Shown piece by piece: positions 7,528-53,129 of a DNA stretch of 64,000 nt. The notes beneath the pieces are model-generated. The model saw only the letters and a program-made list of their open reading frames with translations. It did not search any database and had not been told where the DNA came from. The first letter of the stretch is position 1. Every line of letters starts with the position of its first letter. The DNA is taken from IMG/VR virus record IMGVR_UViG_3300025011_000002. The stretch is one strand, 5' to 3'. The translations under genes were made by a program, and so were the position numbers. The stretch comes from a virus. Lineage: Duplodnaviria; Heunggongvirae; Uroviricota; Caudoviricetes.

Positions 7528-7528
7528 A

Positions 7529-24646: not shown

Positions 24647-25213
24647 TTAATAATATTTTTTTTCTTCTTTTGATATATGAAATTCTATTAATACAAGTAA
24701 ATTCCATATCATAGAACAAATATGTGGAACTCCACTCTCTTTATCTATCCATTCTCCAGATAGCCATCTAAAGGTGTGACGAAGGAATGCTTTTCTATAT
24801 CTTGGAATAGGATTTTTAACCTTACTCCAATTTTTTTCTTCTACTCCCTCTTTATATTTTTTAGCACCATAATTAGGGGCTTGTGCAACATATCCTAGCG
24901 CATTTGGAAAATGACACATTAATATTTCTAAATTAGGTTTCTCTTCATCATCTTTTTTGCCCTCTTCTTCAAGTTCTTCTTTTATTTCTTTATCTTGTTC
25001 TATAGGCTCATTATCATAATCTACATTAATAGCATCAACTGGACAACATTCTAATGCTTCTTCAATTTCTCCCATATTATAAGGAATATTAGTTTCGTTT
25101 ACTTCTGCTACATCTTCTACCGTAAATACTGCTTCACAAATAGATTGACAAGCACCGCATCCAATACATTGCATATTATCTATGTAAACTTTTGTTATTT
25201 TTATTTTATCCAT
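24647..25213 (-). CDS. 4Fe-4S ferredoxin-domain protein fused to a C-terminal domain of unknown function
   Basis: 'CIGCGACQSIC' and 'CCPVDAI' cluster motifs; C-terminal ~100 aa unassigned. Confidence 0.45.
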   Translation of the reverse strand: MDKIKITKVYIDNMQCIGCGACQSICEAVFTVEDVAEVNETNIPYNMGEIEEALECCPVDAINVDYDNEPIEQDKEIKEELEEEGKKDDEEKPNLEILMCHFPNALGYVAQAPNYGAKKYKEGVEEKNWSKVKNPIPRYRKAFLRHTFRWLSGEWIDKESGVPHICSMIWNLLVLIEFHISKEEKKYY

Positions 25214-26693: not shown

Positions 26694-28115
26694 TTATTTA
26701 ATGTTTTCTAAAATATCTGCAATATCTTTATCGTCTCTTATTTCTACCCATACAGGATGATTTAAAGTATATATTACTTTATCTTGTCCTAATTTTTTTT
26801 CATTATATTCTACACATAATATTTTATTTAAAAATTCTTCTTTATGATTCCAAATATATTTACATAAATCTGGAGTTCTTGGTTTAACATTTACAAATAA
26901 TTTATTGTCAGAAGATTTGCAATATACAGCTCCACAGGCATTTTCTAAAGCACCCTTACCTTCAATAAAATCTATTATTTGTAAATCACAATCTTCTTTA
27001 GCTTTAACTTTAAATGCAGAAGATTTTGTATCTTTCCAAATAGAATCATAATTTTTAATTACAAGTCCTTCTTCTTTTCTTTTTATAACTTCATTAAAAT
27101 ATTCCATTATTTCTTCATAACTATTACATATTCTATGCTCTGGAATACTGATATGTTCAAAATCATAATATTCTAATGTTTCAAGCAATAATTTAAATCT
27201 ATCTACACAAGGTAATTTAAATTCTTTATTAATAAAATTATGCCAAGGTATAAAATCCCAAATTTTATATACAATATATTCATTTAAATATATTGGTCTT
27301 TTTTCATCTCTTAATAGACCATTACCTATTTCTCTTGCCAAATATTCTTTATTTAAAGATTGTTCATGTCTTAAAGCTTTAATTTCATCTTCATCTTTTG
27401 TTTTAGATAATAAATATCTAAATACTTTTTCTTCTGCTAATATTCTTATCTCGCCAGTAAATACTAATTTATCATAGCCAAATGTTATAGCAAAATTTAC
27501 TAATTCTTCATCTAATATATTTCCTAATGCTAAAGGTTTACCTTGTCTTGATATATATTGTACTTTAGCAGGAACTAAATCTATAATAGCATTACAAAAT
27601 AATCCATCTTCTTTCATTTGCGCAAGACATGGATATTTAATTTTGTTTATATTTTTTTCACTTAATCCAGTTGCTCCAAGATAAGGATAATCAAAACTAA
27701 AATCATTCCAAACTTTATTAAAAGTAGAAATATCACAACCAAGATGAAGTGTTTTAAATAAAATGCCCTTGCAAAGTTCTTGTTCTGATTCGCTATTTAA
27801 AGATTTAATAAATAAAAATATTTTAATAACATCTTCGTTTTTTGCAGCTTTTAAACAACTTAATTTATCTAATAATTCTTTAAAATTTTCCCATATTAAA
27901 TATTGTTTCTGAACAGAATATGCTTTCCCTTCTAAACATTTATTAAATTTAGCTTCTTTTATTCCATATTGAAAATTAGGATTATATGTATAAAATAATA
28001 TTTCTTTAAGCAAATCATTATAGCTATTTGTTTTTAAAAATTCAATAGCATCATTTCCAGAAGTTTCTCTTAAAATATTTAATATTTCAATTATATTATT
28101 CATATAAATCTTCAC
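26694..28115 (-). CDS. ATP-dependent DNA ligase
   Basis: Motif I 'AQMKEDGLFCN' (KxDG), motif III 'LVFTGEI', motif IV 'EGLVIK', motif V 'WKDTKSSAFKVKAK'. Confidence 0.65.
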   Translation of the reverse strand: MKIYMNNIIEILNILRETSGNDAIEFLKTNSYNDLLKEILFYTYNPNFQYGIKEAKFNKCLEGKAYSVQKQYLIWENFKELLDKLSCLKAAKNEDVIKIFLFIKSLNSESEQELCKGILFKTLHLGCDISTFNKVWNDFSFDYPYLGATGLSEKNINKIKYPCLAQMKEDGLFCNAIIDLVPAKVQYISRQGKPLALGNILDEELVNFAITFGYDKLVFTGEIRILAEEKVFRYLLSKTKDEDEIKALRHEQSLNKEYLAREIGNGLLRDEKRPIYLNEYIVYKIWDFIPWHNFINKEFKLPCVDRFKLLLETLEYYDFEHISIPEHRICNSYEEIMEYFNEVIKRKEEGLVIKNYDSIWKDTKSSAFKVKAKEDCDLQIIDFIEGKGALENACGAVYCKSSDNKLFVNVKPRTPDLCKYIWNHKEEFLNKILCVEYNEKKLGQDKVIYTLNHPVWVEIRDDKDIADILENIK

Positions 28116-28599
28116 CTACTATATTTTTATCAGTATATCTTTCTATAATTCTATAAACAATTGATTCTACATCCCAATATTTTTTAGTAAATTCTATAAC
28201 ATCTTTTATAGGAAAATCTTTACAAGAATATAAATCTATTGTTATAAAATTTTCAAAAGCCCAACAATGAATAGCCGAATGAGATTCACACCAAGTAATA
28301 GTTCCAGTACAACCACTTATTTCATTTTCTCTGGCAACTATTCTATCTCTCATTTTTTTAACTATAGGATGTTCTTTTAATCCAGCATTTTCTAATTCAT
28401 CTGTATATGAATCAATTTCATTAGCAAAAGGAAGATTAAAAACTCTTGGGGCTTCCATAGCAGTCATTTTTGCTACTTTAGTTACATCTCTTAAATATTT
28501 ATCAGTATGTTTTATATTAGATAATAGATGTCTATTTTCTTCTTTAGTATTAACTTGTATTATGATATGGTCGCCTGTATATAAACTTTCTTTTGCCAT
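28096..28599 (-). CDS. speH: S-adenosylmethionine decarboxylase proenzyme (pyruvoyl-dependent, SpeH-like)
   Basis: 'ITWCESHSAIHCWAFENFITIDLYSCK' matches the bacterial AdoMetDC 'ESHxxxHTWPE...CG' region. Confidence 0.55.
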   Translation of the reverse strand: MAKESLYTGDHIIIQVNTKEENRHLLSNIKHTDKYLRDVTKVAKMTAMEAPRVFNLPFANEIDSYTDELENAGLKEHPIVKKMRDRIVARENEISGCTGTITWCESHSAIHCWAFENFITIDLYSCKDFPIKDVIEFTKKYWDVESIVYRIIERYTDKNIVGEDLYE

Positions 28600-29554: not shown

Positions 29555-30055
29555 TTATTTTTCTTCAACATAATTAAATCTATACCCTTTATGTTGTTTA
29601 ATTTTATTTTGTAAACATCTAATTATACTTGTACTATCTAAGTCATGTTCTCTTGCAAATTTTCTCTGATTTATTTCAATATATTCTATATTTTCTGAAC
29701 TTACAGCTTTAAATAACTTTTGCGTTGGTAAAACTCTTCTATTATTTGACTGTTGAATTTTTGTAGCCCATTTACAATTTTTAGGATAATAATCTTTATT
29801 AACATCTATTCTATCAATACTTGTATCTTTTTCTCCATAATTATCTACATGTTCTAAATAACTTTTATACATATCGTCTCTAAAATTTTCAAAAGATTCA
29901 AGCCATTCTTTGCAAATACTTATGCCTCTTGCTCCGTAATCACAATAATTTATAGCTTTTTTATTATAACATCTTATCTTCATACTTTGCCATATTTTAT
30001 AAAATCTTGTATAAGACATATTATGAGTTACATTTATTTTATTATTTTTCATCAA
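29555..30055 (-). CDS. homing-endonuclease-like protein, paralog family member 4 (lacks N-terminal Cys cluster)
   Basis: 'YTRFYKIWQSMKIRC...YCDYGARGISICKEW', 'SIDRIDVNKDYYPKNCKWAT', 'FKAVSSENIEYIEINQRKFAREHDL'. Confidence 0.5.
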   Translation of the reverse strand: MMKNNKINVTHNMSYTRFYKIWQSMKIRCYNKKAINYCDYGARGISICKEWLESFENFRDDMYKSYLEHVDNYGEKDTSIDRIDVNKDYYPKNCKWATKIQQSNNRRVLPTQKLFKAVSSENIEYIEINQRKFAREHDLDSTSIIRCLQNKIKQHKGYRFNYVEEK

Positions 30056-31430
30056 CTCTATTCCCTAAAAATAATAAATCAACAGGCTCTCTTTTTTTTC
30101 TGCCTCTTATTTTGCTAAAAGTAATGTCAAATATATCTTTAAAATCTGCTCTTTCTAAAATTAAATCGTCATATATTGCAGCTCTATATATTAATAGGAC
30201 TACATCACAATTCTGTCTTATATCGCTTGCTCCTTTAAGAGAGAAAATATTAGGTCTATAATCAGTATTATCTTGTATAGAATTTGAAAACTGGTGTAAG
30301 GCAAGTACACATATATTTAAGTCTTTAGCTAATTTTTTTAAACCCTTATAGATATTTTTAATTCTTAAGAAATCATTTCCTTTTGCATCAGCATATTCTA
30401 AAATATCAGTATGGTCTATAACAACAAGTGCTAAATTATTATTTTGCATTTGACATCTTTTTGATTTAATAATAACATCTATTAAATCTGCCCCTGCCGT
30501 ATCATCTATTAATAGATTCATTTTATTTAAACGCATTAAGGCTTTATTTAATCTATCACAATATTCTTTTTTAGCATTCTCATCTATTTTATCATTATGA
30601 ATTAAATCTCTTTCTAAGAAATATAATCTTGGATTTTCTATATGTTCTGAATCAATACCAGATAAAATAGATAACGCTCTTTGTCTTAATTCTTCTGTAG
30701 ACATCTCTAAAGAATGATATAAAACACTTTTATCAGGGTATCTTTCGCATATATTTAAAGCCCATTGCAATGATATTAAAGATTTTCCTGCTCCAGAATC
30801 TCCAGTTAAATTAATTAATTGACCTTTTTGAAGTCCGTTTAATGCAAAATCAATTCTACTAAATCCTGTTTCTAAACCAGTTATTTCATGATTTGTTTTA
30901 TCAAATTTATTAAATAAATCAGTAAAGAAATCTTCTTTATTTATTTCTATTTTCTGTATTTTATTACTTTCAACTTCTAAATTATTTATTTTTAATACAG
31001 TATTATTAAATTCATCTAATAATTTTTCTGATGTTAAAGAATCTTTTTGGTCTATTATTTCTTGACAAGATGTAATAACAGACCTTTTAATAAACCTTTT
31101 TTTAACCTCTTCCGCATAGAATTTAGCATCAATTGAGGACTTTGCTAACTTTTTATAACTATATATATGTTCTTGAGGAGTAAAGGCATCCCATAGTTTA
31201 TTTTCTAATAAATGTGCTAAAATTATATCTTCACTAAATTTTACTTTATTTTGAAATAATTCTAACATTGCGTGATATATATTTCCAGTTAGTTTTGATT
31301 CAAACATATGTGGTTTTAGTATATCTGCAATATTTACAATTACATCTGGCTTATATAATATAGAACCTATTGCTATAGCTTCTACTACATCTGTTGATTG
31401 ATTTAAAATAAAATCTTCTCTTCTTGCCAC
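30042..31430 (-). CDS. dnaB: DnaB-like replicative DNA helicase
   Basis: Walker A 'LTGDSGAGKSLISLQWA', RecA-like C-terminal domain, N-terminal DnaB-like region. Confidence 0.7.
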   Translation of the reverse strand: MARREDFILNQSTDVVEAIAIGSILYKPDVIVNIADILKPHMFESKLTGNIYHAMLELFQNKVKFSEDIILAHLLENKLWDAFTPQEHIYSYKKLAKSSIDAKFYAEEVKKRFIKRSVITSCQEIIDQKDSLTSEKLLDEFNNTVLKINNLEVESNKIQKIEINKEDFFTDLFNKFDKTNHEITGLETGFSRIDFALNGLQKGQLINLTGDSGAGKSLISLQWALNICERYPDKSVLYHSLEMSTEELRQRALSILSGIDSEHIENPRLYFLERDLIHNDKIDENAKKEYCDRLNKALMRLNKMNLLIDDTAGADLIDVIIKSKRCQMQNNNLALVVIDHTDILEYADAKGNDFLRIKNIYKGLKKLAKDLNICVLALHQFSNSIQDNTDYRPNIFSLKGASDIRQNCDVVLLIYRAAIYDDLILERADFKDIFDITFSKIRGRKKREPVDLLFLGNRVDEK

Positions 31431-32753: not shown

Positions 32754-33353
32754 TTAAATATTAACAAAATATTTTTTGTTAAATATTTTAATAAATTCTT
32801 TCGCTTTTAAAGCTATTACTGAAAATGGGTCAAGTGTTTGTTTTGATTTAACAACTTCCATTTGCTCTTTTATTAATTTAGAGAAATCAGAATTATCTTC
32901 TAAAAAGAATCTCATTGCTAAACCTGTAAAGAATACATCTGTTTTTAGATATTCATTTAATTGACTTTGAGCTTCTTCTGGAGATACTTCAATCCTACTA
33001 TCATCTTTTATATATTTCATTGTATTAAATATATTAGATAATATTTTAGATTGACTTGGTTTTGATTCAGCAGCCATTTCTAATTTATACCAATCTCCTT
33101 GTTTAAATAAGATGACTGTATCTCCTACTGTTTTTGTAAAAAATAGGAATTTAAATTTATCTTCTCCATAAACTTCTATTGGCGTTAATCCATCCAACAT
33201 ATCTTCTGTTACAATTCTAACTACTGGATTACCATTAGATGTTAAATCAAAAACAATTGATTTAATTGTTTTTTCATTAGGATTTACTACTACTTTTTCT
33301 TCAACTACTGTTGTTGTTTCTACAACTTCTTTATCTTTTTCTTTTTTCGACAT
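32754..33353 (-). CDS. acidic hypothetical protein
   Basis: 199-aa ORF. Confidence 0.35.
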   Translation of the reverse strand: MSKKEKDKEVVETTTVVEEKVVVNPNEKTIKSIVFDLTSNGNPVVRIVTEDMLDGLTPIEVYGEDKFKFLFFTKTVGDTVILFKQGDWYKLEMAAESKPSQSKILSNIFNTMKYIKDDSRIEVSPEEAQSQLNEYLKTDVFFTGLAMRFFLEDNSDFSKLIKEQMEVVKSKQTLDPFSVIALKAKEFIKIFNKKYFVNI

Positions 33354-33443: not shown

Positions 33444-34520
33444 TTATTCTGTAAACTCTTCTTCGCTTTCTGCCAACATAGCATCAATATCAGAGAATAC
33501 TGTTTCATCTACTACTGCTTCTTCTTTTTTAGTTTTAGCAGTTGATGTTTTTTTAGATTTTTTATCAGAAGCTATTTCTTCTTTAACTTCTTCTTTTTTC
33601 TCTACTTCAACATCTGTATTAATTTCTGTTTTTTTAGATTTAGGTAATTCTTGAACATTACCTTTGAATTTAGAAAAATCTAATCCATCTCCATCATCTT
33701 CTATATCCAAACCAGAAATATCAATTGTTTTAGGCGGAGTATAATTAGAAGTTGATGTAAATTTCTTATTTCTATCTACAATTTCAACTCCCAAAAGTTT
33801 AAGTTTAAGATAAACTGTGTTTTTATTATTTACTCCTTGAGTTGGAATAATTTTAAAACTTATATTTACTAAATCATTAAACGAAGCATATAGGGGTTTT
33901 TCTAAGCCGTCTTTTGAAGATGTAAATGTTGAAACATATTGACCATCTTTTTGTTCAACAATTGGAGGTAATACAAATTTTCTATCATCAAAATAAAATT
34001 GATTTGGAGTTAAACAATTTTCAATTAACTCATTTGCATCATCTTCTAATCCTAAATCTTTAAGATGTTTAATTTCTTGCATTAAAGCTTTACTATGACC
34101 ATTTTTTTGAACTAAAAGGTCTGTAATTTCTTCTGCTTTTTTAGAATCTCCTGCTTCTTCATATTTTTTAGCAATTTCTTCTAAAGCACTTACTGTTTTC
34201 TTTTCTGAAAGATTTTTAAACATAAATTCAAGTTCAGCATATCCTTTTGAATTTCCAGTTTTATCTTCTGGATATTTTAAAGGACTTGGAACAACAACTT
34301 TTCTTCTGTTTTCGCCTTTTGCAAAAGAAGCTACAACATATTCAGAAATAGTATCAAACTTATTAGTCAACATACTTTCTTGTTCTGAATCAAATTCAAC
34401 TCTAAAAGAGGCTTTCCTTCCGAATCTAACATCTCTAAGTGGTCCTGTTGCATTGTAATTTACAACTCTAACATTTTTTAATGTTACTTCATCTCTTTTT
34501 TCTGACATTTTCTTCTCCAT
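33444..34520 (-). CDS. hypothetical protein with K/E-rich linker and acidic C-terminal tail (SSB-like organisation, speculative)
   Basis: C-terminal '...KKSKKTSTAKTKKEEAVVDETVFSDIDAMLAESEEEFTE'. First gene leftward of the putative origin. Confidence 0.3.
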   Translation of the reverse strand: MEKKMSEKRDEVTLKNVRVVNYNATGPLRDVRFGRKASFRVEFDSEQESMLTNKFDTISEYVVASFAKGENRRKVVVPSPLKYPEDKTGNSKGYAELEFMFKNLSEKKTVSALEEIAKKYEEAGDSKKAEEITDLLVQKNGHSKALMQEIKHLKDLGLEDDANELIENCLTPNQFYFDDRKFVLPPIVEQKDGQYVSTFTSSKDGLEKPLYASFNDLVNISFKIIPTQGVNNKNTVYLKLKLLGVEIVDRNKKFTSTSNYTPPKTIDISGLDIEDDGDGLDFSKFKGNVQELPKSKKTEINTDVEVEKKEEVKEEIASDKKSKKTSTAKTKKEEAVVDETVFSDIDAMLAESEEEFTE

Positions 34521-34681
34521 ACTTATTTTTTAAACATCCGATTTTAATCGGTAATATTATTATAACATCTTATTAAAAAAAGTCAATATATTTTTTTATT
34601 TTATTCGTCAGCAACTAAATGTATTTATACTTGTAATTTTATTATATAATATAATTTAAATCAAGTAAAGGTATATTTTGT

Positions 34682-34818
34682 ATTTATTTAAAAAGTTCTA
34701 TATTTTTAATATAAATATTTAGAACCTTGTAAATATTTTATTTCTTGTAGATATTTATTACTTGTATTTATTTAAATAAATAGAACTTATATAAAATAAT
34801 AGAACTTTTTAAATAAAT
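34682..34818. promoter_or_regulatory. origin/divergent-promoter candidate: perfect 20-bp inverted repeat flanking three iteron-like direct repeats
   Basis: 'atttatttaaaaagttctat' (34682-34701) is the exact reverse complement of 'atagaactttttaaataaat' (34799-34818). Between them lie three tandem ~17-bp CTTGTA-led repeats (34726-34776) and AAATAnnTAGAAC repeats. The region sits at the minus/plus strand switch. Confidence 0.45.
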
Positions 34819-34957
34819 CTATATTTTAAATTAATGAGTATTTTATTTTATATCATATTTTAAAATATGTCAACCCAATAATTAAAAAAAAATAACATCT
34901 TGTAAATTATATAAAATTATGGTATTATATTCCTATAACAGTTAAAAAGGTGAGAAA

Positions 34958-35545
34958 ATGATTAAAGTAATAGTTGGTTCAATGAGGTCAGGAAAATCAA
35001 AAGCAATAATTCGTATTATAAACGAAAAAATTGCAGAAGGAAAGAGTGTAAAAGTTTTTTATCCTATCTGTGCTAGTAAAGAGGATAATTATATCGTTAG
35101 TAGGTCTGGATTAAAACATAAGGCAATTCCAGTTATTGACCCAATATCTATTTTTAGTCATATAGGAAATTCAGATTTAATTGTTATTGACGAGATAAGT
35201 TTTATAAATAATATGGATTCTTCTTTAGATGATGATTTTTTAAATCTTTTAGATTATTGTGTATCTAAGGATATTGATGTTGTTTTAGCAGGATTAGATT
35301 TAGATTATAGAGGACAATCTTTCCCATTAGTTAATAAAATTTTAGCATACGCAGATGAAGTAGAAAAACCATTATCTTTATGTGATAATTGTGGAAATAA
35401 TAATGGTAGACGTACCATTAAAAAAGTTGATGATTTGTTAGCAGATATTAAATTAGAATGTGAGAATGTTTTAGAATTAGAAGAAGGAGATGTTCAATAT
35501 ATGTCTGTTTGTGTTAAATGTTATAATAAAATGTATGGTCGTTAA
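34958..35545 (+). CDS. tdk: thymidine kinase
   Basis: P-loop 'VGSMRSGKSKAII'; C-terminal zinc ribbon 'CDNCG...CVKCY'. Confidence 0.8.
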   Translation: MIKVIVGSMRSGKSKAIIRIINEKIAEGKSVKVFYPICASKEDNYIVSRSGLKHKAIPVIDPISIFSHIGNSDLIVIDEISFINNMDSSLDDDFLNLLDYCVSKDIDVVLAGLDLDYRGQSFPLVNKILAYADEVEKPLSLCDNCGNNNGRRTIKKVDDLLADIKLECENVLELEEGDVQYMSVCVKCYNKMYGR

Positions 35546-35547: not shown

Positions 35548-36006
35548 ATGACGGATAAAGAAATAAATAAATTTAATCAGCATAATGAAGAAATATATAA
35601 AAAATTATTATATATTAATAAAGATAATCTTTATCTTGTTGAAAATCTTTGTAAATATGATTTCTTTTACGAATATAAAAAAAATAATTATATTTTAGAT
35701 GCGAATGTTTCTTTTATGTCTATGAGTGATTTACAATTAACATTGGATGATTCTATCTATGTTTTACAAGATTTAGAAGATATATATAATTATAATTTTA
35801 TAAATTTTCAAGACTTGGAAGAAATAATTAGAAAAGATAGTTATTTTGAAACTTCAATGGTAGATTCATTATTATATGCAAGTGTTGTTGAAGAGTATCA
35901 TATTACTTGTAGTGTGAGTGAATTAGTTATAGAAATAATGGATATAGCAAGAGTATATCATAATACAATTAATAAAATAATAGATGTTAGAAATAGATGT
36001 AAATAA
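35548..36006 (+). CDS. hypothetical protein
   Basis: 152-aa ORF. Confidence 0.35.
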   Translation: MTDKEINKFNQHNEEIYKKLLYINKDNLYLVENLCKYDFFYEYKKNNYILDANVSFMSMSDLQLTLDDSIYVLQDLEDIYNYNFINFQDLEEIIRKDSYFETSMVDSLLYASVVEEYHITCSVSELVIEIMDIARVYHNTINKIIDVRNRCK

Positions 36007-36019
36007 ATGGAAGATAAAA

Positions 36020-38797
36020 ATGATAAGTAAAGAAGATGTTCTAAAATTAAAAAAAGCTATAGATATAATTCCATTTTATGAAAGATATTTAAAATTAAAA
36101 AGAATAGGTTCATCTTATTTTGCAAGATGTCCATTTGGAAAACATACAGATTCGACACCAAGTTTTTCTATTTTACCAGAAAAAAATGGTATATTTAAAT
36201 GCTTTGGATGTTTGCCAGAATATCAAGAAGTAAGAACGGAAAATGGAATTAAAAAAATAAAAGATATTGTTATTGGAGAAAACATCTATACTTTAGATGG
36301 AAATTTAACAAAAATAATAAATAAAAAAAATCATAAATCTGAATATAATATTATAAAAATTAAAACAGCTAATTCTTATGAATATTCTTATTATACAGCC
36401 AATCATAACATGTTTTATATTTCAAAAGAACAAGCCGTAAATTCTTTACCTTTTTTAAGAAATGAAAATGATAGAGACAATTTAAAGTTTTATAAAAGAA
36501 TGAAAAAAAGAGATGATAAATATAAATTAAATATTGAACAAGGATTTGCTGAAAATATTAAATATGAAGACTATTTTATATACCCATCTACAAGAGAAGA
36601 ATTAAAAAAAGATGGTATTTCTTTTAAAAATTTAAAAACAAAAGATATAAAAGAAATACCATTAAATGAAGATATTATGTGGTTATTTGGGTTATATATT
36701 GCAGAAGGAAGCGTATATAGAGGTGGTGTTAAATGGTCTTTACATATAAAAGAGATTGACTATGCTCTTAGAATTAAAGATATATTAAAAAAATATTTAA
36801 ATTTAGAAGCATCAATATATAAATATGACAATAAGCCTAATTCTTTAGAAATTGGATGCTCTAAAACAGATTTAGAATTAATTTTCTCTAATTTATTCGG
36901 CAATGGCTCAATAAATAAAAAATATCCATATTATTTTAATTATTTATCTTTAAATCTAAGAGCATCTTTATTTAAAGGAATGTTTGATGGAGATGGATGT
37001 TATTCTAATAATAAATATACTACTATTAGCCCAATATTAAAAGATTTATTTTTTGACTTAAGTATAAGTTTAAATAAGATACCTAGTATTTATTCTTATA
37101 CTAATGAGAATAAACAAACATCATATCTTATTTATATTAAAAATAGAGAATCAGTAAAATCATTTTTTTATTATATTAATGAAATAAAATATTTATTTTT
37201 ACAAATAACCGATATTAATAAAATAGATAAATGTAATAATGATGTTTATGATATAACTGTATCTCACTATTCTCATTCATTTTTATCAAAATATTTTATT
37301 GTTGGAAATTGTGGAACAAGCGGAGATGTAATATCTTTTTATCAAAGAATAGAAAATCTTTCATTCTTTGATGCAGTAATACAACTTGCAAAAGATTATA
37401 ATGTTGAAATAAAAATAAATAAAGAATTAAAACAAGAATATGCTAAAAAGAATTTATTATATAAATTTAATAAACATGTTTTAGATATTTACAGAAATAA
37501 TTTAAGATATAATACTTCTGCGTTAAAATATCTCATAGAGGAGAGAAAAATATCTTTAGATATGATTAAATCATTTAAGATAGGAACAACCCTTAATGAC
37601 GACTTACATATCGTATTATTTAAATATAAAAGTATTCTTGAAGAATTAAAATTAATTACAGAAAAAAATAATGACCATTTTAGAAATAATAGAATTATGT
37701 TCCCTTATTTGGATGAAAAATTTAATATATCTGGATTTAATTCAAGAGCTATTAATGAAGATAATATAAAATATTTAACATCTAAAACATCACCTATATT
37801 TGATAAAAATAGGGCTTTATATGGCATACACTTAGCTTTAAAAGAAATAATGGAAAGAGCTGCTGTTATTTTAGTTGAAGGTCAATTTGATTGTATAAGA
37901 TGTCATCAAGAAGGTATCAAAAATTGTGTTGCTGCATCTGGACTTGCTTTATCAGAAGAACAAGTAAAATTTTTAAATAAATATGTTAAAACATATTTTA
38001 TTTGTTTTGATAATGATGAAGCAGGGAATGAACAATTAGAAGCAACATATATTCAAATAAATAAAATTAATCCATATGCAAGGGTTAGAATTATAGAATT
38101 ACCTAAGCCTATAGGTAAGAAAAAAATGGATTTGGATGAGTATTTATTAAATAATGATAAGTCTGAATTTCTTAAAATTGCATTAGCATCTAAAAATTAT
38201 AATGAATATTTTATAGAGAAAGTATTAAAAGATGTTAATTATAAGACAATTGAAGAAAAGAAAAAATATGTTTATATCTTAAAAGATAGATTACTTAGTA
38301 TAAGTTCTATTATTGATAGAAATCAATATATCTCTATGGTAGCTAATAAGTTAGAAATACCAGAAATTGATATACATAATATTTTAAAAAATAAAGAAAA
38401 ATATGATAATAAACAGAAAAATTCTGATAAAATTAAAAAAATAGAAAAAAGAAATATATCTGCTCAAAAATATCTTATTTCTTTATTATTTTCAGAACAT
38501 AATCCTTACGATATATTAAAAATATTTGAAGAATTAGATATATATAAGCATTTTGAACCAATGTATTATAATATTTTTAAATATATTGAAAAACAATGGT
38601 TGCAATCTAATGGGATAGATGATATAATAGATAATGTAACAATGAATTTTAAATCAGATGAATCAAAACAAGCGGTTATAGATATTCTATTTAAATCAAA
38701 TGAATTAAATTATTATGATAATGATGAAATAAAAATATTTATAGAAGACCAAATAAGTACATTAGAAGAGTCTGAAGAAGAGAAAGAACATGAGTAA
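36020..38797 (+). CDS. dnaG: DnaG-type DNA primase interrupted by an intein
   Basis: CHC2 zinc finger 'CPFGKHTDSTPSFSI...FKCFGC', resumed after the insertion by 'GTSGDVISFYQ...LSFFDAVIQLA'. TOPRIM 'ILVEGQFDCIRCHQEG' and 'FICFDNDEAGNEQ'. Start taken at MISKEDV to avoid overlap with the upstream ORF. Confidence 0.8.
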   Translation: MISKEDVLKLKKAIDIIPFYERYLKLKRIGSSYFARCPFGKHTDSTPSFSILPEKNGIFKCFGCLPEYQEVRTENGIKKIKDIVIGENIYTLDGNLTKIINKKNHKSEYNIIKIKTANSYEYSYYTANHNMFYISKEQAVNSLPFLRNENDRDNLKFYKRMKKRDDKYKLNIEQGFAENIKYEDYFIYPSTREELKKDGISFKNLKTKDIKEIPLNEDIMWLFGLYIAEGSVYRGGVKWSLHIKEIDYALRIKDILKKYLNLEASIYKYDNKPNSLEIGCSKTDLELIFSNLFGNGSINKKYPYYFNYLSLNLRASLFKGMFDGDGCYSNNKYTTISPILKDLFFDLSISLNKIPSIYSYTNENKQTSYLIYIKNRESVKSFFYYINEIKYLFLQITDINKIDKCNNDVYDITVSHYSHSFLSKYFIVGNCGTSGDVISFYQRIENLSFFDAVIQLAKDYNVEIKINKELKQEYAKKNLLYKFNKHVLDIYRNNLRYNTSALKYLIEERKISLDMIKSFKIGTTLNDDLHIVLFKYKSILEELKLITEKNNDHFRNNRIMFPYLDEKFNISGFNSRAINEDNIKYLTSKTSPIFDKNRALYGIHLALKEIMERAAVILVEGQFDCIRCHQEGIKNCVAASGLALSEEQVKFLNKYVKTYFICFDNDEAGNEQLEATYIQINKINPYARVRIIELPKPIGKKKMDLDEYLLNNDKSEFLKIALASKNYNEYFIEKVLKDVNYKTIEEKKKYVYILKDRLLSISSIIDRNQYISMVANKLEIPEIDIHNILKNKEKYDNKQKNSDKIKKIEKRNISAQKYLISLLFSEHNPYDILKIFEELDIYKHFEPMYYNIFKYIEKQWLQSNGIDDIIDNVTMNFKSDESKQAVIDILFKSNELNYYDNDEIKIFIEDQISTLEESEEEKEHE
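36209..37309 (+). mobile_element. intein with LAGLIDADG homing endonuclease inside dnaG
   Basis: 367-aa in-frame insertion between 'FKCFG' and 'CGTSGDV'. Starts 'CLPEYQEV', block B 'TANHNMF', LAGLIDADG motifs 'LFGLYIAEGS' and 'FKGMFDGDGC', ends '...FIVGN' with +1 Cys. Flanking exteins rejoin to the canonical CFGCGxxGDVI primase motif. Confidence 0.7.
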
Positions 38798-39506
38798 TAT
38801 AATAGGACAAAAATTTGAAAGATTAGAAGTTTTATCTAAATCTTATAGAAATAAAAATAGCATTCAATATTATGAATGTAAGTGTGATTGTGGTAATATT
38901 ATAAATACAAGAAAATATTGTTTAATATCTGGAAGTACAAAATCATGTGGATGTTTACATAAAGAAAAAGTATCAACTCACAATATAACAAAAACTAGAT
39001 TTTATAGAATATGGCAAAATATTAAAACTAGATGTTTAAATAAAAATCATACATATTATAAAAATTATGGAGAACGTGGTATAAATATTTGTGATAGATG
39101 GCTAAATTTTGATAAATTTAAAGAAGATATGTATGATAGTTATTTAGAATATGTAAAAGATTTTGGAGAAAAAGATACAAGTATTGATAGAGAAAATAAT
39201 AATTTAGGATATTCAAAAGATAATTGTAAATGGTCTACTTGTGAAGAACAGGCAAGCAATAGAAGAGAAATAAATTGGGATAAAGCAAAATTTAAAAACC
39301 AAAAATTATTTAAAGCTATTTCTCCAGAAGGTATAGAATATATTGAAATAAATCAAAGAAAATTTGCAAGAGAATATGAATTAGATAGTAATAGGGTAAA
39401 TAGTTGTTTAAATAATCATCAAAAAACTCATAATAATTGGAAATTTAAATATTTATCAGATGATGAAATAAATAATTTTTTGGTATTAAAACAAGATGAA
39501 GTGTGA
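38790..39506 (+). CDS. homing-endonuclease-like protein, paralog family member 5
   Basis: 'KFERLEVL...YECKCDCGN...SGSTKSCGCL', 'TRFYRIWQNIKTRC...YKNYGERGINICDRW', 'SIDRENNNLGYSKDNCKWST', 'FKAISPEGIEYIEINQRKFAREYEL'. Confidence 0.5.
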   Translation: MSNIIGQKFERLEVLSKSYRNKNSIQYYECKCDCGNIINTRKYCLISGSTKSCGCLHKEKVSTHNITKTRFYRIWQNIKTRCLNKNHTYYKNYGERGINICDRWLNFDKFKEDMYDSYLEYVKDFGEKDTSIDRENNNLGYSKDNCKWSTCEEQASNRREINWDKAKFKNQKLFKAISPEGIEYIEINQRKFAREYELDSNRVNSCLNNHQKTHNNWKFKYLSDDEINNFLVLKQDEV

Positions 39507-41448: not shown

Positions 41449-42420
41449 ATGAAATTTTTAAAACATAATGATAAAATATTAATTACTGGAGGAGCTGGGT
41501 TTATAGGGTCTCATTTAGTAGATGTCCTTATAACTAATGGTTATAAAGTTGTTGTTGTAGATAATTTATCTAATAGTAATATTAATAATATAAAACACAA
41601 TTTAAATAATCCAAATTTTATGTTTTATAATGATGATATTACCAATTTAAACATATTAAATAAAATTTTTAAAGAAGAAAATCCAAAAATTATATTTCAT
41701 TTAGCTGCTAATTCAGATATTGCAAAAAGTCATTATAATCCAGGAATTGATTTTAAAGATACATTATTAACTACTTATAATATTTTAAATGCCATGAAAA
41801 ATAATAGTATTTATAAAATCGTATTTGCATCTACTTCAGCGGTTTATGGAGAATTAAAAGGCAAACTGTCTGAAGATTCTGGTCCTCTTTTACCTACTTC
41901 TCATTATGGGGCTTCTAAATTAGCTTCCGAAGGTTTTATATCAAGTTTTGTTGAAAATTATAATATCAAAGCTTGGATATTTAGATTTCCAAATGTTGTT
42001 GGTCCAAGAGCAACACATGGCGTAATATATGATTTTATTAATAAATTAAAATATATGCCTGAAAATATAACAGTTTTAGGTGATGGAAATCAATATAAGC
42101 CATATTTATATGTTAGTGAATTAATAAAAGCTATATTATTTGTATTAAACAATACAAATGAAAAAATAAATTTATATAATATAGGCAATACGACAAGAAC
42201 TTATGTAAAAGATATTATAAAAATGACTATAAATGAAATGAATTTAAAACATATAACTAATATTATTTATACTGGAGGAAGTAAAGGTTGGATTGGAGAT
42301 GTATCAGAATTTGAATATTGCTTGGATAAGATACACAATCTGGGTTGGAGAGCAAGTATGACATCTGATGAAGCTGTAAGAAAAGCTATTATAGAAAATA
42401 TTGGAGATTATTTAGTATGA
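41449..42420 (+). CDS. NAD-dependent nucleotide-sugar epimerase/dehydratase (SDR family)
   Basis: 'ILITGGAGFIGSHL' Rossmann motif; catalytic 'SHYGASKLASE' (YxxxK). Confidence 0.75.
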   Translation: MKFLKHNDKILITGGAGFIGSHLVDVLITNGYKVVVVDNLSNSNINNIKHNLNNPNFMFYNDDITNLNILNKIFKEENPKIIFHLAANSDIAKSHYNPGIDFKDTLLTTYNILNAMKNNSIYKIVFASTSAVYGELKGKLSEDSGPLLPTSHYGASKLASEGFISSFVENYNIKAWIFRFPNVVGPRATHGVIYDFINKLKYMPENITVLGDGNQYKPYLYVSELIKAILFVLNNTNEKINLYNIGNTTRTYVKDIIKMTINEMNLKHITNIIYTGGSKGWIGDVSEFEYCLDKIHNLGWRASMTSDEAVRKAIIENIGDYLV

Positions 42421-43184
42421 ATTTAGAGGAGCTTAAAACCGTAGGGTTTGTTCCGCATAATTCTATTATCAATGCAGATTGTCTTGAGGCAATGAAATAT
42501 ATTCAAGACAAAAGTATTGATATGATTTTATGTGATTTGCCTTATGGAACGACAGCTTGTAAATGGGATACAATCATTCCTTTTGAGCCACTTTGGGAAC
42601 AATACAACAGGATTATAAAAGATAAAGGCGTAATTGTCCTAACATCACAAGGTATATTTACCGCAAAATTAATATTAAGTAATGAAAAATTTTTCAAATA
42701 TAAAATTGTATGGGAAAAATCAAAATCTACTAATTTTTTAAATGCAAAAAAACAACCTTTAAGAAAACATGAAGATATTTGTGTTTTTTATAAAAATCAA
42801 CCAAACTATTTTCCTCAAATGAAAGAAGGTTTGCCATATAACAAAGGAACAAGAAAAGCTCAACTAACGGGAAGCTATGGAGATTTTAATCCAGTTCTTG
42901 TTAAAAGTGAAGGCAGTAGATACCCAACAGATATTATTTATTTTAAAACTGCTGAATCAGAAGGGGATGTTTATCACCCCACTCAAAAACCAGTAGCCCT
43001 CTTTGAATATCTAATAAAAACATACACAAACGAAGGTGATTTGGTTCTTGATAATTGTGCAGGAAGTGGAACAACGGGTGTGGCATGCTTAAATACAAAT
43101 AGAAATTATATTTTAATTGAAAAAGAAAAAGAATATATTGATATAATTAATAAAAGAATTGAGGAAAATAAATGCAACTTGTAA
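42417..43184 (+). CDS. DNA methyltransferase (N6-adenine/N4-cytosine, beta class)
   Basis: Motif IV 'ILCDLPYGT' precedes motif I 'VLDNCAGSGTTGVAC'; this is the N6_N4 MTase order. Confidence 0.65.
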   Translation: MNLEELKTVGFVPHNSIINADCLEAMKYIQDKSIDMILCDLPYGTTACKWDTIIPFEPLWEQYNRIIKDKGVIVLTSQGIFTAKLILSNEKFFKYKIVWEKSKSTNFLNAKKQPLRKHEDICVFYKNQPNYFPQMKEGLPYNKGTRKAQLTGSYGDFNPVLVKSEGSRYPTDIIYFKTAESEGDVYHPTQKPVALFEYLIKTYTNEGDLVLDNCAGSGTTGVACLNTNRNYILIEKEKEYIDIINKRIEENKCNL

Positions 43185-43876
43185 TTATAGCTGGTGGCAA
43201 AGGCACAAGACTTGGCTTAAAAGATATTCCAAAACCTATGGTGTTATTGGGTGATAAGCCTATTATACATCATCAAATAGACTTGGCTATAAGACATGGT
43301 ATAAAAGATATAGTTATTATAGGAGGTTATTTATCCGAAGTTATTGTTGATTATTTTAAAGAGGATATGCCAAATGGTATAGATTTAACTATCATACAAG
43401 AATTAAAACCAATGGGAACAGCAGGAGCTTTACATTCTGCTAAATCAATATTACAAGATAGATTTATGGTATTTTACGGTGATTTATATTTAGATTTTGA
43501 TATTAATAAATTTATTGAGTTTTATGAACACATTAGAGCGTCTGCTACAATAATTGTTCAGCCAAATGCCTATCCAGATGAAGCAGACTTATTAGAGGTG
43601 GATAATATGGTTGTAAAGAATATTTATCCAAAACCAAGAGGCAAAGATAAAGAATATAAAAATATATCAAATGCTGCGGTTTATATATTTGATAGAGCAA
43701 TACTTCATTTTATAGATTCTACAGAGCCACAAGATTTTGGCAAAGATGTGTTTCCAAGAATGTTGAATAATGGTGTTTCAATTATAGCTTATGAGACAGA
43801 TGAGATATTAAAAGATTTAGGAACTTTAGAAAAATTAGAAGGTGTTAGAAATGATTATTTCAAGAACTCCATTTAG
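43172..43876 (+). CDS. hddC: sugar-1-phosphate nucleotidyltransferase (HddC-like heptose-1-P guanylyltransferase)
   Basis: 'MQLVIIAGGKGTRLG' N-terminal signature; size 234 aa. Confidence 0.65.
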   Translation: MQLVIIAGGKGTRLGLKDIPKPMVLLGDKPIIHHQIDLAIRHGIKDIVIIGGYLSEVIVDYFKEDMPNGIDLTIIQELKPMGTAGALHSAKSILQDRFMVFYGDLYLDFDINKFIEFYEHIRASATIIVQPNAYPDEADLLEVDNMVVKNIYPKPRGKDKEYKNISNAAVYIFDRAILHFIDSTEPQDFGKDVFPRMLNNGVSIIAYETDEILKDLGTLEKLEGVRNDYFKNSI

Positions 43877-44816
43877 AATAAGTTTTGCTGGTGGCGGTAG
43901 TGATTTAAAAGAACACTATAAAAAATATGGTGGTGCTGTTTTGTCTGTCACAATAAATAAATATATATATCTTTCAATGCATCCTTATTTTGAAAAAGAT
44001 AAATATATTCTTAAATATTCAGAAATTGAAAAAACTAATTCAGTTAATAATATTCAACATAGAATTATTAAACAAGTTTTTAAAAATTATAATATAAAGG
44101 GAGTAGATTTTAATTCAAGTGCAGACATTCCATCTGGAACTGGATTGGGTTCTTCGTCTGCATTTACAGCAGGATTAATAAACTTATGTAATTCATATAA
44201 CAATGAAAAAATAAGCAAAGAAGATATTGCCAATGAAGCTTGCGATGTTGAGATAAACCAATTAAATTGCCCGATAGGAAAACAAGACCAATATGCTTCA
44301 ACTTATGGAGGATTAAACTTTATATTATTTAATCAAGATTGTTCTGTTACAGTTAAAAAGACTAATATGATTGAATGGAAAAAAGATAAATTGGAAAATA
44401 ATTTATTGTTATTCTATCTTGGCAAAACAAGGTCAGCAGACAAGGTTTTAAATACATATAATAGTAATAATAATAATTTAATAAAAATGGTTGACTTAGC
44501 ATATAGTTTAAATTCATCACTAAGTAAGAATAATATAGATTCAGTTGGAGATATTCTACATACAGGATGGATGTATAAGAAAGAGTTATCATCTGAAATA
44601 AGCAATACAGATATAGATTATTATTATAATTTAGCCATTAAAAATGGGGCAGAAGGTGGGAAACTATTAGGTGCTGGTGGGGGAGGATTTTTATTATTTT
44701 ATGTCAAAGAGGAAAATCAAGAGCGATTAAGAAATGTTTTAAGCGTTCTGAAAGAAGTAAGTTTTAAGTTTGAAGACAAAGGAGCAAGTATAATATATGA
44801 TGATGACGATAGATAA
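43842..44816 (+). CDS. hddA: GHMP kinase, D-glycero-alpha-D-manno-heptose 7-phosphate kinase-like (HddA)
   Basis: N-terminal 'RTPFRISFAGGGSDL'; GHMP motif 'PSGTGLGSSSAFTAGL'. Confidence 0.7.
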   Translation: MLEMIISRTPFRISFAGGGSDLKEHYKKYGGAVLSVTINKYIYLSMHPYFEKDKYILKYSEIEKTNSVNNIQHRIIKQVFKNYNIKGVDFNSSADIPSGTGLGSSSAFTAGLINLCNSYNNEKISKEDIANEACDVEINQLNCPIGKQDQYASTYGGLNFILFNQDCSVTVKKTNMIEWKKDKLENNLLLFYLGKTRSADKVLNTYNSNNNNLIKMVDLAYSLNSSLSKNNIDSVGDILHTGWMYKKELSSEISNTDIDYYYNLAIKNGAEGGKLLGAGGGGFLLFYVKEENQERLRNVLSVLKEVSFKFEDKGASIIYDDDDR

Positions 44817-47261: not shown

Positions 47262-47264
47262 ATA

Positions 47265-53112: not shown

Positions 53113-53129
53113 TAAATAAGGAGAAAAAT

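What the first reader, a model, noticed from the sequence alone, without database searches (positions are those of the whole stretch)
34520..34957. Strand-switch region with a perfect 20-bp inverted repeat and iteron-like tandem repeats (origin candidate)
All genes to the left are minus-strand and all to the right are plus-strand. The 440-bp AT-rich gap holds 'atttatttaaaaagttctat' (34682-34701) and its exact reverse complement (34799-34818). Inside them are three CTTGTA-initiated ~17-bp direct repeats and repeated AAATAnnTAGAAC boxes. The replication genes dnaB and a putative SSB-like protein lie immediately leftward, and tdk/dnaG immediately rightward. The region probably also carries divergent early/middle promoters.
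Basis: seen in the sequence. Interest (0 to 1): 0.6.

Follow-up and report, generated by a model that had tools for sequence, protein, structure and literature searches.

The report
Repeat-packed control region, possible phage origin
The 450-bp gap between a phage's single-strand-binding-protein gene and its thymidine-kinase/primase genes really does hold promoters facing both ways plus protein-binding repeats, and related phages keep the same layout, so it is a genuine control region and a plausible but unproven replication origin.

Summary
The perfect 20-bp inverted repeat (34682-34701 / 34799-34818), the three CTTGTA-headed 17-18-bp repeats and the four TAGAAC boxes are all present. They exceed chance: 1 of 2000 shuffles reaches a 20-bp inverted repeat.

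The gap is the longest non-tRNA non-coding stretch in the window. It is also the most AT-rich and least stable duplex in 82 kb of this roughly 123-kb groundwater phage.

The new result is comparative. Five other lineages have a 320-630+ bp AT-rich gap upstream of the SSB gene, four of them packed with repeats. Where both flanks are visible, the order DnaB-200aa-SSB-gap-tdk is kept. The repeat boxes differ by lineage: AGAACTT, TGAACTT, ATAACTT, ATCTTAAGAT.

This pattern suggests binding sites that co-evolve with a phage protein. That fits an origin, but it equally fits operators. GC skew follows gene direction, DnaA boxes are not enriched, and no initiator protein is recognisable.

Verdict: a real, conserved control region. 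Origin is plausible (about 0.45). It is a new member of a known kind, of modest interest.

The parts
33444..34508 (-). Gene for a T7 gp2.5-like single-stranded-DNA-binding protein. It is 354 aa from the ATG at 34508, with an alternative ATG at 34520. It has a disordered acidic C-terminal tail.
32754..33353 (-). Conserved gene of about 200 aa and unknown function, always directly downstream of the SSB gene. It is a candidate partner (origin binder, helicase loader or regulator); that role is inferred only.
   Evidence: Homologues follow the SSB gene in L022 (E 5e-35), L021 (1e-27), L013 (2e-9), L015 and L016. No PHROG, Pfam or PDB sequence match.
34538..34551 (-). Short hairpin CCGATTAAAATCGG at the predicted 5' end of the SSB mRNA made from P_L1.
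   Evidence: Found, where the scan reported it as a terminator-like hairpin on the + strand. A hairpin sits at the same position in L008 (CCGA..TCGG) and L013 (GGAATT..AATTCC).
34559..34586 (-). P_L1, the proximal leftward promoter for the SSB operon: TTGACT - 16 nt - TATAAT, preceded by TGt.
   Evidence: 11 of 12 consensus matches. It belongs to the recurring TTGACT-N13-TGTTATAAT class on the left arm. Position and sequence are conserved in L008, and equivalents exist in L013, L015, L021 and L022.
34608..34621 (.). TCAGCAACTAAATG, a G+C-containing island 22 bp upstream of the P_L1 -35 element. Function unknown.
   Evidence: Identical at 14 of 14 positions in the 53%-identity relative L008, although the flanking sequence cannot be aligned. 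Unique in 82 kb.
34641..34669 (-). P_L3, a candidate second leftward promoter: TTTACT - 17 nt - TATAAT.
   Evidence: 10 of 12 consensus matches. Tandem leftward promoters 65-100 bp apart are also seen in L021 and L022. This is a consensus match only.
34682..34701 (+). Left arm of the perfect 20-bp inverted repeat. It combines an ATTTATTTAAA box with an AAGTTCTAT box (an inverted TAGAAC box).
34799..34818 (-). Right arm of the perfect 20-bp inverted repeat: ATAGAACTTTTTAAATAAAT.
34712..34774 (+). Tandem array of 17-18-nt units headed by CTTGTA (at 34726, 34744 and 34761). Related TTGTA-type boxes lie at 34631, 34678 and 34900, all in the + orientation.
   Evidence: TRF reports period 17, 3.6 copies, score 66. 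CTTGTA occurs 5 times on the + strand of the gap. About 0.24 is expected from the window-wide + strand frequency of 35 per 64 kb (my arithmetic). None of the three internal copies is followed by a TGnTAnnnT -10 element (sequence; pattern scan). TTGTATTTATTTA also occurs once in the L008 gap.
34765..34782 (.). Perfect 18-bp palindrome TATTTATTTAAATAAATA.
   Evidence: It is the longest perfect palindrome in the 82 kb examined.
34768..34818 (+). Tandem array of 19-nt units carrying ATAGAACTT boxes at 34780 and 34799. A degenerate TTAGAACCT box lies at 34719.
   Evidence: TRF reports period 19, 2.7 copies, score 74. AGAACTT occurs 3 times against 0.18 expected (P = 9e-4). The same GAACTT core is repeated 6 times in the orthologous gap of L013.
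34807..34864 (+). Third tandem array, about 17 nt x 3.4 copies.
34845..34873 (-). P_L2, a candidate distal leftward promoter (TTGACA - 17 nt - TAAAAT). It sits back-to-back with P_tdk and would transcribe across the repeats. The 16-bp palindrome CATATTTTAAAATATG (34854-34869) overlaps its -35 element and spacer.
   Evidence: 11 of 12 consensus matches. Palindrome. L013 has an equivalent distal TTGACA promoter back-to-back with its tdk promoter. Not experimentally supported.
34892..34928 (+). P_tdk, the rightward promoter for the tdk-dnaG arm: ATAACATC-TTGTAA - 17 nt (ending TGg) - TATTAT.
   Evidence: The identical 14-mer ATAACATCTTGTAA with the same spacing lies upstream of the DNA polymerase gene at 19989-20002 (-). 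A one-mismatch copy lies at 15678-15691 (-). 13 of 14 hits to the TTGnnA-N13-15-TGnTAnnnT pattern are co-oriented with the local genes.
34958..35545 (+). Thymidine kinase gene, the first gene of the rightward arm.
   Evidence: Pfam TK, E = 1.2e-21. A TK gene flanks the orthologous gap in L013 and L021.

Best explanation
This is the central non-coding control region of an uncultivated phage of about 123 kb and 25% GC.

Two sigma-70-type promoters with extended -10 elements fire outward. P_L1 drives the gp2.5-like SSB, 200-aa protein and DnaB arm. P_tdk drives the tdk and DnaG arm. Between them lies a core of about 200 bp at 10-12% GC, filled with three kinds of short boxes: TAGAAC/GAACTT, TTGTA-type and ATTTATTTAAA. 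They are arranged as direct repeats framed by a 20-bp inverted repeat.

My preferred mechanism is the following, and it is inferred rather than shown. The boxes are binding sites for a phage-encoded sequence-specific protein, which assembles a nucleoprotein complex on the least stable DNA in the genome. Melting there lets the phage's own DnaB, DnaG and Pol III-alpha-type replisome load and start bidirectional replication. Transcription from the distal leftward promoter P_L2 across the core may help, as in the T7 and T4 origins.

Shown: the repeats, their statistical excess, the promoters' family membership, and the conservation of the architecture.

Inferred: protein binding, unwinding and initiation.
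For: - Anatomy. The repeats exceed chance. The gap holds the only long perfect inverted repeat and the longest palindrome in 64-82 kb. Three abutting tandem arrays have 17-19-nt periods, which is iteron-sized.
- Unwinding potential. It has the lowest GC and the least stable duplex at every scale tested, in the window and in the 82-kb extension.
- Not coding, not RNA. It is the largest non-tRNA non-coding gap. It has no ORF of 20 aa or more inside it (one 31-aa ORF only overlaps its left edge) and no Rfam match.
- Location. It sits at the divergence of two arms of 43 and 21 kb that carry SSB, DnaB, ligase, Pol III-alpha-like polymerase, DnaG and a UvrD-like helicase.
- Skew. The cumulative G-C minimum of the 82 kb visible falls here. 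Coding-strand skew is about 0.25 in both arms but only about 0.09 in the minus-strand tail block to the right. That is what an added replication skew from an origin to the left would produce.
- Conservation. Orthologous gaps in five other lineages have 7-21% GC against 21-29% for their loci as a whole (L008, L013/14, L015, L021, L022). Four of them carry strongly enriched, lineage-specific boxes: TGAACTT 6 vs 0.19 expected, ATAACTT 10 vs 0.19, ATCTTAA 9 vs 0.21 (P from 1e-8 to 1e-14). L008 has only low-complexity AT repeats. Synteny tdk-gap-SSB-200aa-DnaB is kept wherever both flanks are visible.
- Box placement. L013 has more than 10 boxes spread over about 250 bp, mostly not overlapping core promoter elements. 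That looks more like a nucleoprotein assembly site than a simple operator.
Against: - There is no direct evidence of initiation.
- GC skew flips wherever gene direction flips (34.7 kb, 56.3 kb, and about -8.5 kb in extended coordinates), so it cannot separate replication from transcription.
- About 41 kb of the genome, including at least one more divergent switch, could not be retrieved.
- No Rep, O, DnaA-like or other initiator protein was recognised nearby.
- DnaA boxes are not enriched in any of the gaps.
- The closest relative, L008, has no TAGAAC boxes, only a 93%-AT low-complexity stretch.
- Some boxes overlap promoter-like elements. The 16-bp palindrome lies on P_L2, and the TAGAAC box lies over the -10 position of the TTGTAT promoter-like sites. 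That is what operators do.
- In L022 the repeats lie upstream of both leftward promoters, so transcription through the repeats is not universal.
Confidence: 0.45

Rival explanations
1. The region is a purely transcriptional control hub. The boxes are operators for one or two phage regulators that time or balance expression of the divergent SSB/DnaB and tdk/DnaG operons. This would resemble lambda OR or the phi29 A2b/A2c-A3 switch region. The origin lies elsewhere, or replication is recombination-primed.
For: - Real promoter families flank the repeats and lie within them.
- The 16-bp palindrome overlaps the -35 element and spacer of P_L2.
- L021 has an inverted repeat between its two tandem leftward promoters.
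- TTGTAT-17-TATTCT in L008 and TTGTAT-17-TATTTT at 34678 look like weak rightward promoters overlapped by a TAGAAC box.
- Lineage-specific box sequences fit repressor-operator co-evolution as well as they fit initiator-iteron co-evolution.
- No initiator protein was found.
- The phage carries recombination genes: a Holliday-junction resolvase domain, an exonuclease and a UvrD-like helicase.
Against: - Ten or more sites spread over 200-300 bp, with tandem arrays of 6 or more 16-nt units (L015), is heavier than typical operator sets.
- Most boxes in L013 do not touch core promoter elements.
- The extreme AT content (7-15% GC over 300-600 bp) is more than promoters need.
- No HTH-type regulator was recognised next to the region.
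Confidence: 0.35
2. The region is a long AU-rich leader used for post-transcriptional autoregulation of the SSB gene. SSB would bind its own unstructured mRNA leader transcribed from P_L2, as T4 gp32 does (the gp32 precedent is from my own knowledge).
For: - A long AT-rich stretch upstream of the SSB gene is the most conserved feature of all six lineages, including L008, which lacks discrete boxes.
- A candidate distal promoter would give a leader of about 330 nt.
- A conserved hairpin precedes the ribosome-binding site.
Against: - The boxes contain G/C-bearing cores, occur in both orientations and form perfect palindromes. That points to double-stranded-DNA recognition, not to non-specific single-strand binding.
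- The RNA fold is only modestly better than shuffles (z = -2.8), and that comes from the inverted repeat alone.
- The strong proximal promoter P_L1 bypasses the leader.
- In L021 and L022 most repeats lie upstream of both leftward promoters.
Confidence: 0.07
3. The gap is a low-complexity AT-rich spacer whose repeats arose by slippage and have no specific function. A variant is that it serves another cis function, such as a packaging or partition site.
For: - AT-rich low-complexity DNA generates repeats easily, and L008 looks like this.
- Contigs often break here (L003, L006, L007, L008, L015, L022), as expected for a poorly covered, repetitive stretch.
Against: - Shuffles almost never reach the 20-bp inverted repeat (1 of 2000).
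- G/C-containing boxes are enriched 15- to 50-fold over the flanks in four lineages.
- The related GAACTT core is shared by the window and the distant L013.
- No terminase or partition genes are nearby. The visible structural genes lie more than 20 kb away.
Confidence: 0.08

Closest known systems
Iteron-type theta origins (phage lambda ori, P1 oriR, plasmids such as pSC101, R6K, F). Comparison from my own knowledge.
   Same: Clusters of 17-22-bp direct repeats lie next to an AT-rich, easily melted stretch and some dyad symmetry. They sit among replication genes. The repeat sequence diverges between relatives while the architecture is kept.
   Different: No Rep/O-type initiator gene is recognisable. 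In lambda the origin lies inside the initiator gene, whereas here it is intergenic. There are no DnaA boxes. At least two or three different box types are interleaved, rather than one iteron.
Transcription-activated origins of virulent phages: the T7 primary origin (tandem promoters followed by an AT-rich segment) and T4 oriF/oriG (promoter plus downstream unwinding element). Comparison from my own knowledge.
   Same: It is a virulent-type phage with its own replisome and a gp2.5-type SSB. Tandem promoters (P_L2, P_L3, P_L1) read into or through the most AT-rich DNA of the genome. No dedicated initiator protein is needed in this model.
   Different: The promoters here are host sigma-70-like, not phage-RNA-polymerase or MotA-dependent. 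T7 and T4 origins do not carry dense arrays of sequence-specific repeat boxes. In L022 the repeats lie upstream of the promoters.
Origins of lactococcal and streptococcal phages that lie in non-coding, repeat-rich regions (for example the c2 ori between divergent early and late promoters, and the sk1 and Sfi21 ori fragments). Comparison from my own knowledge.
   Same: The region is intergenic, AT-rich, and contains direct plus inverted repeats. It sits at or near a divergent promoter region beside replication genes. These were first predicted from exactly this kind of anatomy.
   Different: Those fragments were validated by plasmid replication or interference (Per) assays, and no such test exists here. 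There is no sequence similarity, and the phage lineage is unrelated (no GenBank phage relatives).
Divergent-promoter operator regions (lambda OR; the phi29 A2c/A2b-A3 control region with multiple p4 sites and p6 coating). Comparison from my own knowledge.
   Same: Back-to-back and divergent promoters have several repeated or palindromic sites between and over them. The DNA is AT-rich and probably bent.
   Different: This region has far more sites, arranged as tandem arrays. No cognate regulator has been identified. There is no lysogeny module in the 82 kb examined.

Membership tests
Iteron-type replication origin | Three or more direct repeats of about 17-22 bp clustered in one place | tested here: met
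   TRF finds arrays of 17 nt x 3.6, 19 nt x 2.7 and 17 nt x 3.4 at 34712-34864. L015 has 6.5 or more copies of a 16-nt unit plus 3 copies of a 17-nt unit.
Iteron-type replication origin | Adjacent AT-rich DNA-unwinding element | tested here: met
   This is the least stable duplex and lowest GC (10.5% over 200 bp) in the window and the 82-kb extension.
Iteron-type replication origin | Cognate initiator (Rep/O-like) encoded at or next to the origin | tested here: inconclusive
   No Pfam or PHROG initiator domain is found in the ten neighbouring genes. The conserved 200-aa protein next to SSB has no recognisable family, so it could be the initiator or not.
Iteron-type replication origin | Supports or initiates replication (marker-frequency peak, autonomous replication) | not testable with these tools
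   Only sequence is available. GC skew is confounded by gene direction.
DnaA-dependent origin | Cluster of DnaA boxes (TTATCCACA / TTWTNCACA) | tested here: not met
   There is no enrichment in the window gap or in any orthologous gap (P = 0.17-0.83).
Transcription-activated phage origin (T7 / T4 type) | Promoter directing transcription into an AT-rich unwinding segment | tested here: inconclusive
   Candidate P_L2 (TTGACA-17-TAAAAT, 11 of 12) reads leftward across the repeats, and L013 has an equivalent. However, promoter-like hits are no more frequent than in shuffles (19 vs 20.4). L022 has its repeats upstream of both promoters.
Transcription-activated phage origin (T7 / T4 type) | Persistent R-loop or transcript used as primer | not testable with these tools
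   This needs experiments.
Divergent promoter / operator control region | Functional promoters firing in opposite directions from the gap | tested here: met
   P_L1 is conserved in L008 and belongs to the TTGACT-N13-TGTTATAAT class. P_tdk shares ATAACATCTTGTAA-N17-TATxxT with the polymerase-gene promoter. 13 of 14 pattern hits are co-oriented with the local genes. This is computational support only.
Divergent promoter / operator control region | Repeated operator sites overlapping core promoter elements, plus a cognate regulator | tested here: inconclusive
   The 16-bp palindrome overlaps P_L2. Most boxes do not overlap the -35 or -10 elements of the well-supported promoters. No regulator has been identified.
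T7 gp2.5-like SSB (the left-flanking gene) | gp2.5-type OB fold with an acidic C-terminal tail | tested here: met

The most novel reading that the evidence does not exclude
The gap is the replication origin of a previously undescribed clade of low-GC environmental phages. Its lineage-specific two-box iterons are read by a new family of origin-binding or helicase-loading proteins. The candidate is the uncharacterised protein of about 200 aa that is always encoded right after the gp2.5-like SSB gene; in some lineages it ends in an E. coli-SSB-like acidic ...EEIPF tip. That would define a new initiator family and a new way of coupling a T7-type SSB to a DnaB/DnaG/Pol III-alpha replisome.
Probability: 0.15. 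Interest if true: 0.6.

Novelty: new member of a known kind. Interest (0 to 1): 0.38.

Why it matters
If this is the origin, it provides the cis element and a short list of candidate trans factors for replication in a phage clade with no cultured member and no GenBank relatives. These phages come from groundwater and other metagenomes.

The set of six orthologous gaps with diverged boxes is a ready-made specificity series for finding the binding protein.

Even on the more modest reading, it defines the promoter grammar of this phage and the control point of its replication genes. That grammar is an extended -10 element, TTGACT or AACATC-TTGyAA -35 regions, and 5' hairpins.

The kind of element is familiar, so the gain is incremental rather than conceptual.

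Tried and rejected
- **Close relatives.** Megablast and tblastn against GenBank phages found none. The best DnaB match there is below 30% identity.
- **Single-protein scans.** IMG/VR scans with SSB, tdk or DnaB found nothing. IMG/VR with the 2-sequence alignment A1 also found nothing, as did two metagenome-contig scans. Only alignments of distant SSB homologues retrieved the orthologous loci.
- **Strain variation.** The seven contigs carrying the identical SSB are the same strain at 99.7-100% identity, so they give no variation data.
- **Whole-genome skew.** Only window-encoded proteins can be looked up, so I could extend only to 82 of about 123 kb.
- **TAGAAC/AAGTTC boxes elsewhere as a regulon.** The other copies I inspected (around 22.1 and 22.8 kb) look like chance matches in sequence that reads as protein-coding. 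The composite ATTTATTTAAA plus AAGTTCTAT occurs only in the gap.
- **The three internal CTTGTA repeats as -35 elements of tandem promoters.** None has a TGnTAnnnT -10 element at the right spacing.
- **DnaA boxes.** Not enriched.
- **Structured RNA or small ORF.** No Rfam hit and no ORF of 20 aa or more inside the gap. Fold z is only -2.8 (RNA) and -2.3 (DNA).
- **A second similar site at 10.8-11.1 kb** (next-lowest stability, tandem repeats). It is the coding sequence of a GIY-YIG endonuclease.
- **First structure prediction.** With two sequences it was too poor to use (pLDDT 45).
- **Sequence searches against PDB.** They gave nothing for SSB or the 200-aa protein.
- **Literature.** Searches found no description of this phage or element.
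Full report
**1. What the window is**

The window is part of a phage-like genome of about 25% GC. It carries ten tRNA genes and its own replication genes:
- a DnaB helicase at 30042-31430 (-);
- an intein-containing DnaG primase at 35984-38797 (+);
- thymidine kinase at 34958-35545 (+);
- a UvrD-like helicase, an ATP-dependent ligase and a 1196-aa polymerase matching PHROG 405.

Identical sequence occurs on 123-kb contigs from the Rifle aquifer groundwater metagenomes, PRJNA268031. GenBank phages contain no close relative.

**2. The observation**

- The arms ATTTATTTAAAAAGTTCTAT (34682-34701) and ATAGAACTTTTTAAATAAAT (34799-34818) are perfectly complementary.
- Only 1 of 2000 dinucleotide-preserving shuffles of the gap reaches a perfect inverted repeat of 20 nt or more. 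The 15-nt direct repeat TTGTATTTATTTAAA (34678 / 34762) is reached in about 2%.
- Across the 64 kb, every perfect inverted repeat of 16 nt or more lies in this gap. That includes an 18-bp and a 16-bp palindrome.
- TRF finds three abutting arrays: 17 nt x 3.6 (the CTTGTA units), 19 nt x 2.7 (the TAGAAC units) and 17 nt x 3.4. Together they span 34712-34864.
- TAGAAC occurs four times against 0.36 expected.
- The gap is the longest non-tRNA non-coding stretch, the lowest in GC and the least stable duplex at 100, 200 and 300 bp.
- It holds no ORF of 20 aa or more inside it; one 31-aa ORF only overlaps its left edge. It holds no Rfam family.

Minor corrections: genes to the right are on the + strand only up to 56.2 kb, and dnaB is 3 kb away rather than adjacent.

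**3. The neighbours**

The left-hand 354/358-aa protein had no Pfam, PHROG or PDB sequence match. An exhaustive profile search found just ten family members. With nine of them aligned, AlphaFold gave a confident model for residues 1-250.

**4. Promoters**

*P_L1* (34586 to 34559, - strand; TTGACT-16-TATAAT with TG) is one of a recurring TTGACT-N13-TGTTATAAT class on the left arm. It is conserved in the 53%-identical relative L008, together with a hairpin at the predicted 5' end of the mRNA.

*P_tdk* (34892-34928) shares the exact 14-mer ATAACATCTTGTAA, the 17-nt spacer ending in TG, and a TATxxT -10 element with a site in front of the polymerase gene (19989-20002). A one-mismatch copy lies at 15678.

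Thirteen of fourteen hits to the extended -10 promoter pattern are co-oriented with the local genes. So the pattern is meaningful in this genome, even though generic consensus hits are no more frequent than in shuffles.

Two further leftward candidates exist. P_L2 (34873 to 34845) sits back-to-back with P_tdk and reads across the repeats. P_L3 runs from 34669 to 34641.

The three internal CTTGTA repeats lack any suitably spaced -10 element. They are not simply tandem promoters.

**5. Comparative evidence (the main new result)**

Alignments of distant SSB homologues retrieved the orthologous locus in several other lineages:
- L013/L014 and L015 from IMG/VR;
- L021, a GTDB contig labelled as a Mycoplasmataceae MAG;
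- L022;
- L008.

Where both flanks are visible (L013, L021), the gene order matches the window: DnaB, 200-aa protein, SSB, then the gap, then tdk on the other strand. In L013, DnaG follows tdk.

The gaps are 560 and 576 bp in L013 and L021. In the three contigs that end inside the gap they exceed 323, 495 and 629 bp. GC is 7-21%, against 21-29% for the loci as a whole.

Four of the five gaps are packed with their own repeat boxes:

| Lineage | Boxes in the gap | Enrichment |
|---|---|---|
| L013 | two AAGTTCATGAACTT palindromes plus half-sites | TGAACTT 6 vs 0.19 expected, P = 6e-8 |
| L013 | GGAGTGTATA (core AGTGTATA) | 5 copies vs 0 elsewhere |
| L015 | ATAACTT units, 16-17-nt tandem arrays | 10 vs 0.19 expected, P = 2e-14 |
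| L021 | ATCTTAAGAT palindromes | ATCTTAA 9 vs 0.21 expected, P = 2e-12 |
| L022 | TATACTTTAAATAT and TTTAGTTATTATA | 2 exact (3 with the shorter core ACTTTAAA) and 3 copies, none elsewhere |

The window's AGAACTT, L013's TGAACTT and L015's ATAACTT share an AACTT core. L013 also mirrors the window's layout of symmetric sites framing three direct composite repeats. L008 is the exception: it has only extreme low-complexity AT sequence plus one copy of TTGTATTTATTTA. L016 lacks the divergent arrangement and the boxes.

A conserved architecture with diverging box sequences is the signature of cis sites co-evolving with a sequence-specific protein encoded by the phage. The only uncharacterised gene kept next to the gap in every lineage is the protein of about 200 aa after SSB. 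Its role is a guess.

**6. Origin or operator?**

*For an origin:*
- the repeats are iteron-sized tandem arrays;
- the DNA is the most meltable in the genome;
- the position is between the replication-gene arms;
- there are many sites that mostly avoid core promoter elements;
- the cumulative G-C minimum of the 82 kb I could assemble falls here;
- the minus-strand tail block to the right has a much weaker coding-strand skew (about 0.09 against 0.25), as expected if replication from the left opposes transcription there.

*Against, or neutral:*
- skew changes sign at every change of gene direction, so it is confounded;
- a third of the genome, with at least one more divergent switch, was out of reach;
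- DnaA boxes are not enriched;
- no initiator protein is recognisable;
- some boxes do overlap promoter-like elements.

Both functions can coexist. My own knowledge offers precedents: the T7 primary origin, T4 oriF/oriG and the lactococcal phage c2 ori all combine promoters with an AT-rich segment.

I put the origin reading at about 0.45, a purely transcriptional control region at about 0.35, and minor alternatives at about 0.15 together. The remainder is unassigned.

**7. Comparison with known systems and novelty**

The element resembles iteron-type and transcription-activated phage origins, and also divergent operator regions. It passes the structural criteria for each. It fails or cannot be tested on the decisive ones: a cognate initiator and initiation activity.

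It is best filed as a new member of a known kind, a putative origin and control region in an undescribed phage clade. The clade-wide conservation with lineage-specific boxes is a useful handle for experiments, but it is not surprising in kind.

**8. Verdict**

Promoters, SSB and functional repeats are supported; the origin is plausible but unproven.
- Interest is modest (0.38).

Noticed in passing
window 34608-34621: TCAGCAACTAAATG is identical at 14 of 14 positions in relative L008, inside AT-rich sequence that otherwise cannot be aligned. It is unique in 82 kb. It may be a factor-binding site upstream of P_L1; the function is unknown.
   Followed up: partly
window 32754-33353 (-); L013:6520-7233; L015:1331-1987; L021:3608-4210; L022:1609-2175: A protein of about 200 aa with no known family always follows the gp2.5-like SSB gene. 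The L013 and L015 versions end in an acidic ...EEIPF tail that resembles the C-terminal tip of E. coli SSB.
   Followed up: partly
window 35984-38797 (+): The DnaG primase is 937 aa. Between the zinc ribbon and the catalytic core it carries an insertion with LAGLIDADG and Hint matches, which is probably an intein. The L013 homologue is 546 aa and lacks it.
   Followed up: no
window 22254-22536, 29555-30055, 38790-39506: Three paralogous HNH endonuclease genes share 74-79% nucleotide identity. One sits beside dnaB and one beside dnaG. A GIY-YIG endonuclease (10397-11107) sits beside nrdD.
   Followed up: no
window 15678-15691 (-), 19989-20002 (-), 34892-34905 (+), and many TTGACT-N13-TGTTATAAT sites: There are two recurring promoter classes with extended -10 elements. 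One has a conserved (A)ACA(T)C motif just upstream of the -35 element. Nearly all sites are co-oriented with the genes, which implies transcription by a host sigma-70-type polymerase throughout the replication arms.
   Followed up: partly
L009:17480-17730 (about 5.2 kb left of window position 1): A strong promoter is followed about 40 nt later by a canonical terminator hairpin (TCCCGATTAATAATCGGGA plus a T-run), and then by a second promoter. This may be a small RNA of about 55 nt. The hairpin resembles the one in the SSB 5' UTR.
   Followed up: no
window 34570, 34626, 34788; L008, L015 and L022 contig ends: Three of the five short same-strain contigs end inside this gap, as do three contigs of relatives. 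This is probably a coverage drop or a repeat-induced assembly break in DNA of 7-15% GC. It could also hide length variation in the arrays.
   Followed up: partly
window 1176-3733 and 3728-7688: RtcB and an RNA ligase lie next to the ten-tRNA cluster, and a tRNA nucleotidyltransferase lies at 20162-21478. Together they look like a tRNA repair and maintenance kit.
   Followed up: no
window 41449-49856, 24647-25213, 28096-28599: This run of genes includes a sugar-nucleotide epimerase, nucleotidyltransferase, GHMP kinase, glycosyltransferases, a DNA methyltransferase, an AdoMet-decarboxylase-like protein and a dGTP/dATP pyrophosphohydrolase-like protein. It may form a DNA hypermodification pathway.
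   Followed up: no
L021 (WTBJ01000035.1): A 6.1-kb contig binned as a Mycoplasmataceae MAG carries the phage module tdk-gap-SSB-200aa-DnaB. It is either a mis-binned phage fragment or a hint to the host range of this clade.
   Followed up: no
window 51984-54641: PRPP synthetase and nicotinamide phosphoribosyltransferase genes (NAD salvage) lie at the end of the rightward arm. A patatin-like gene lies in the tail block at 62673-63560.
   Followed up: no
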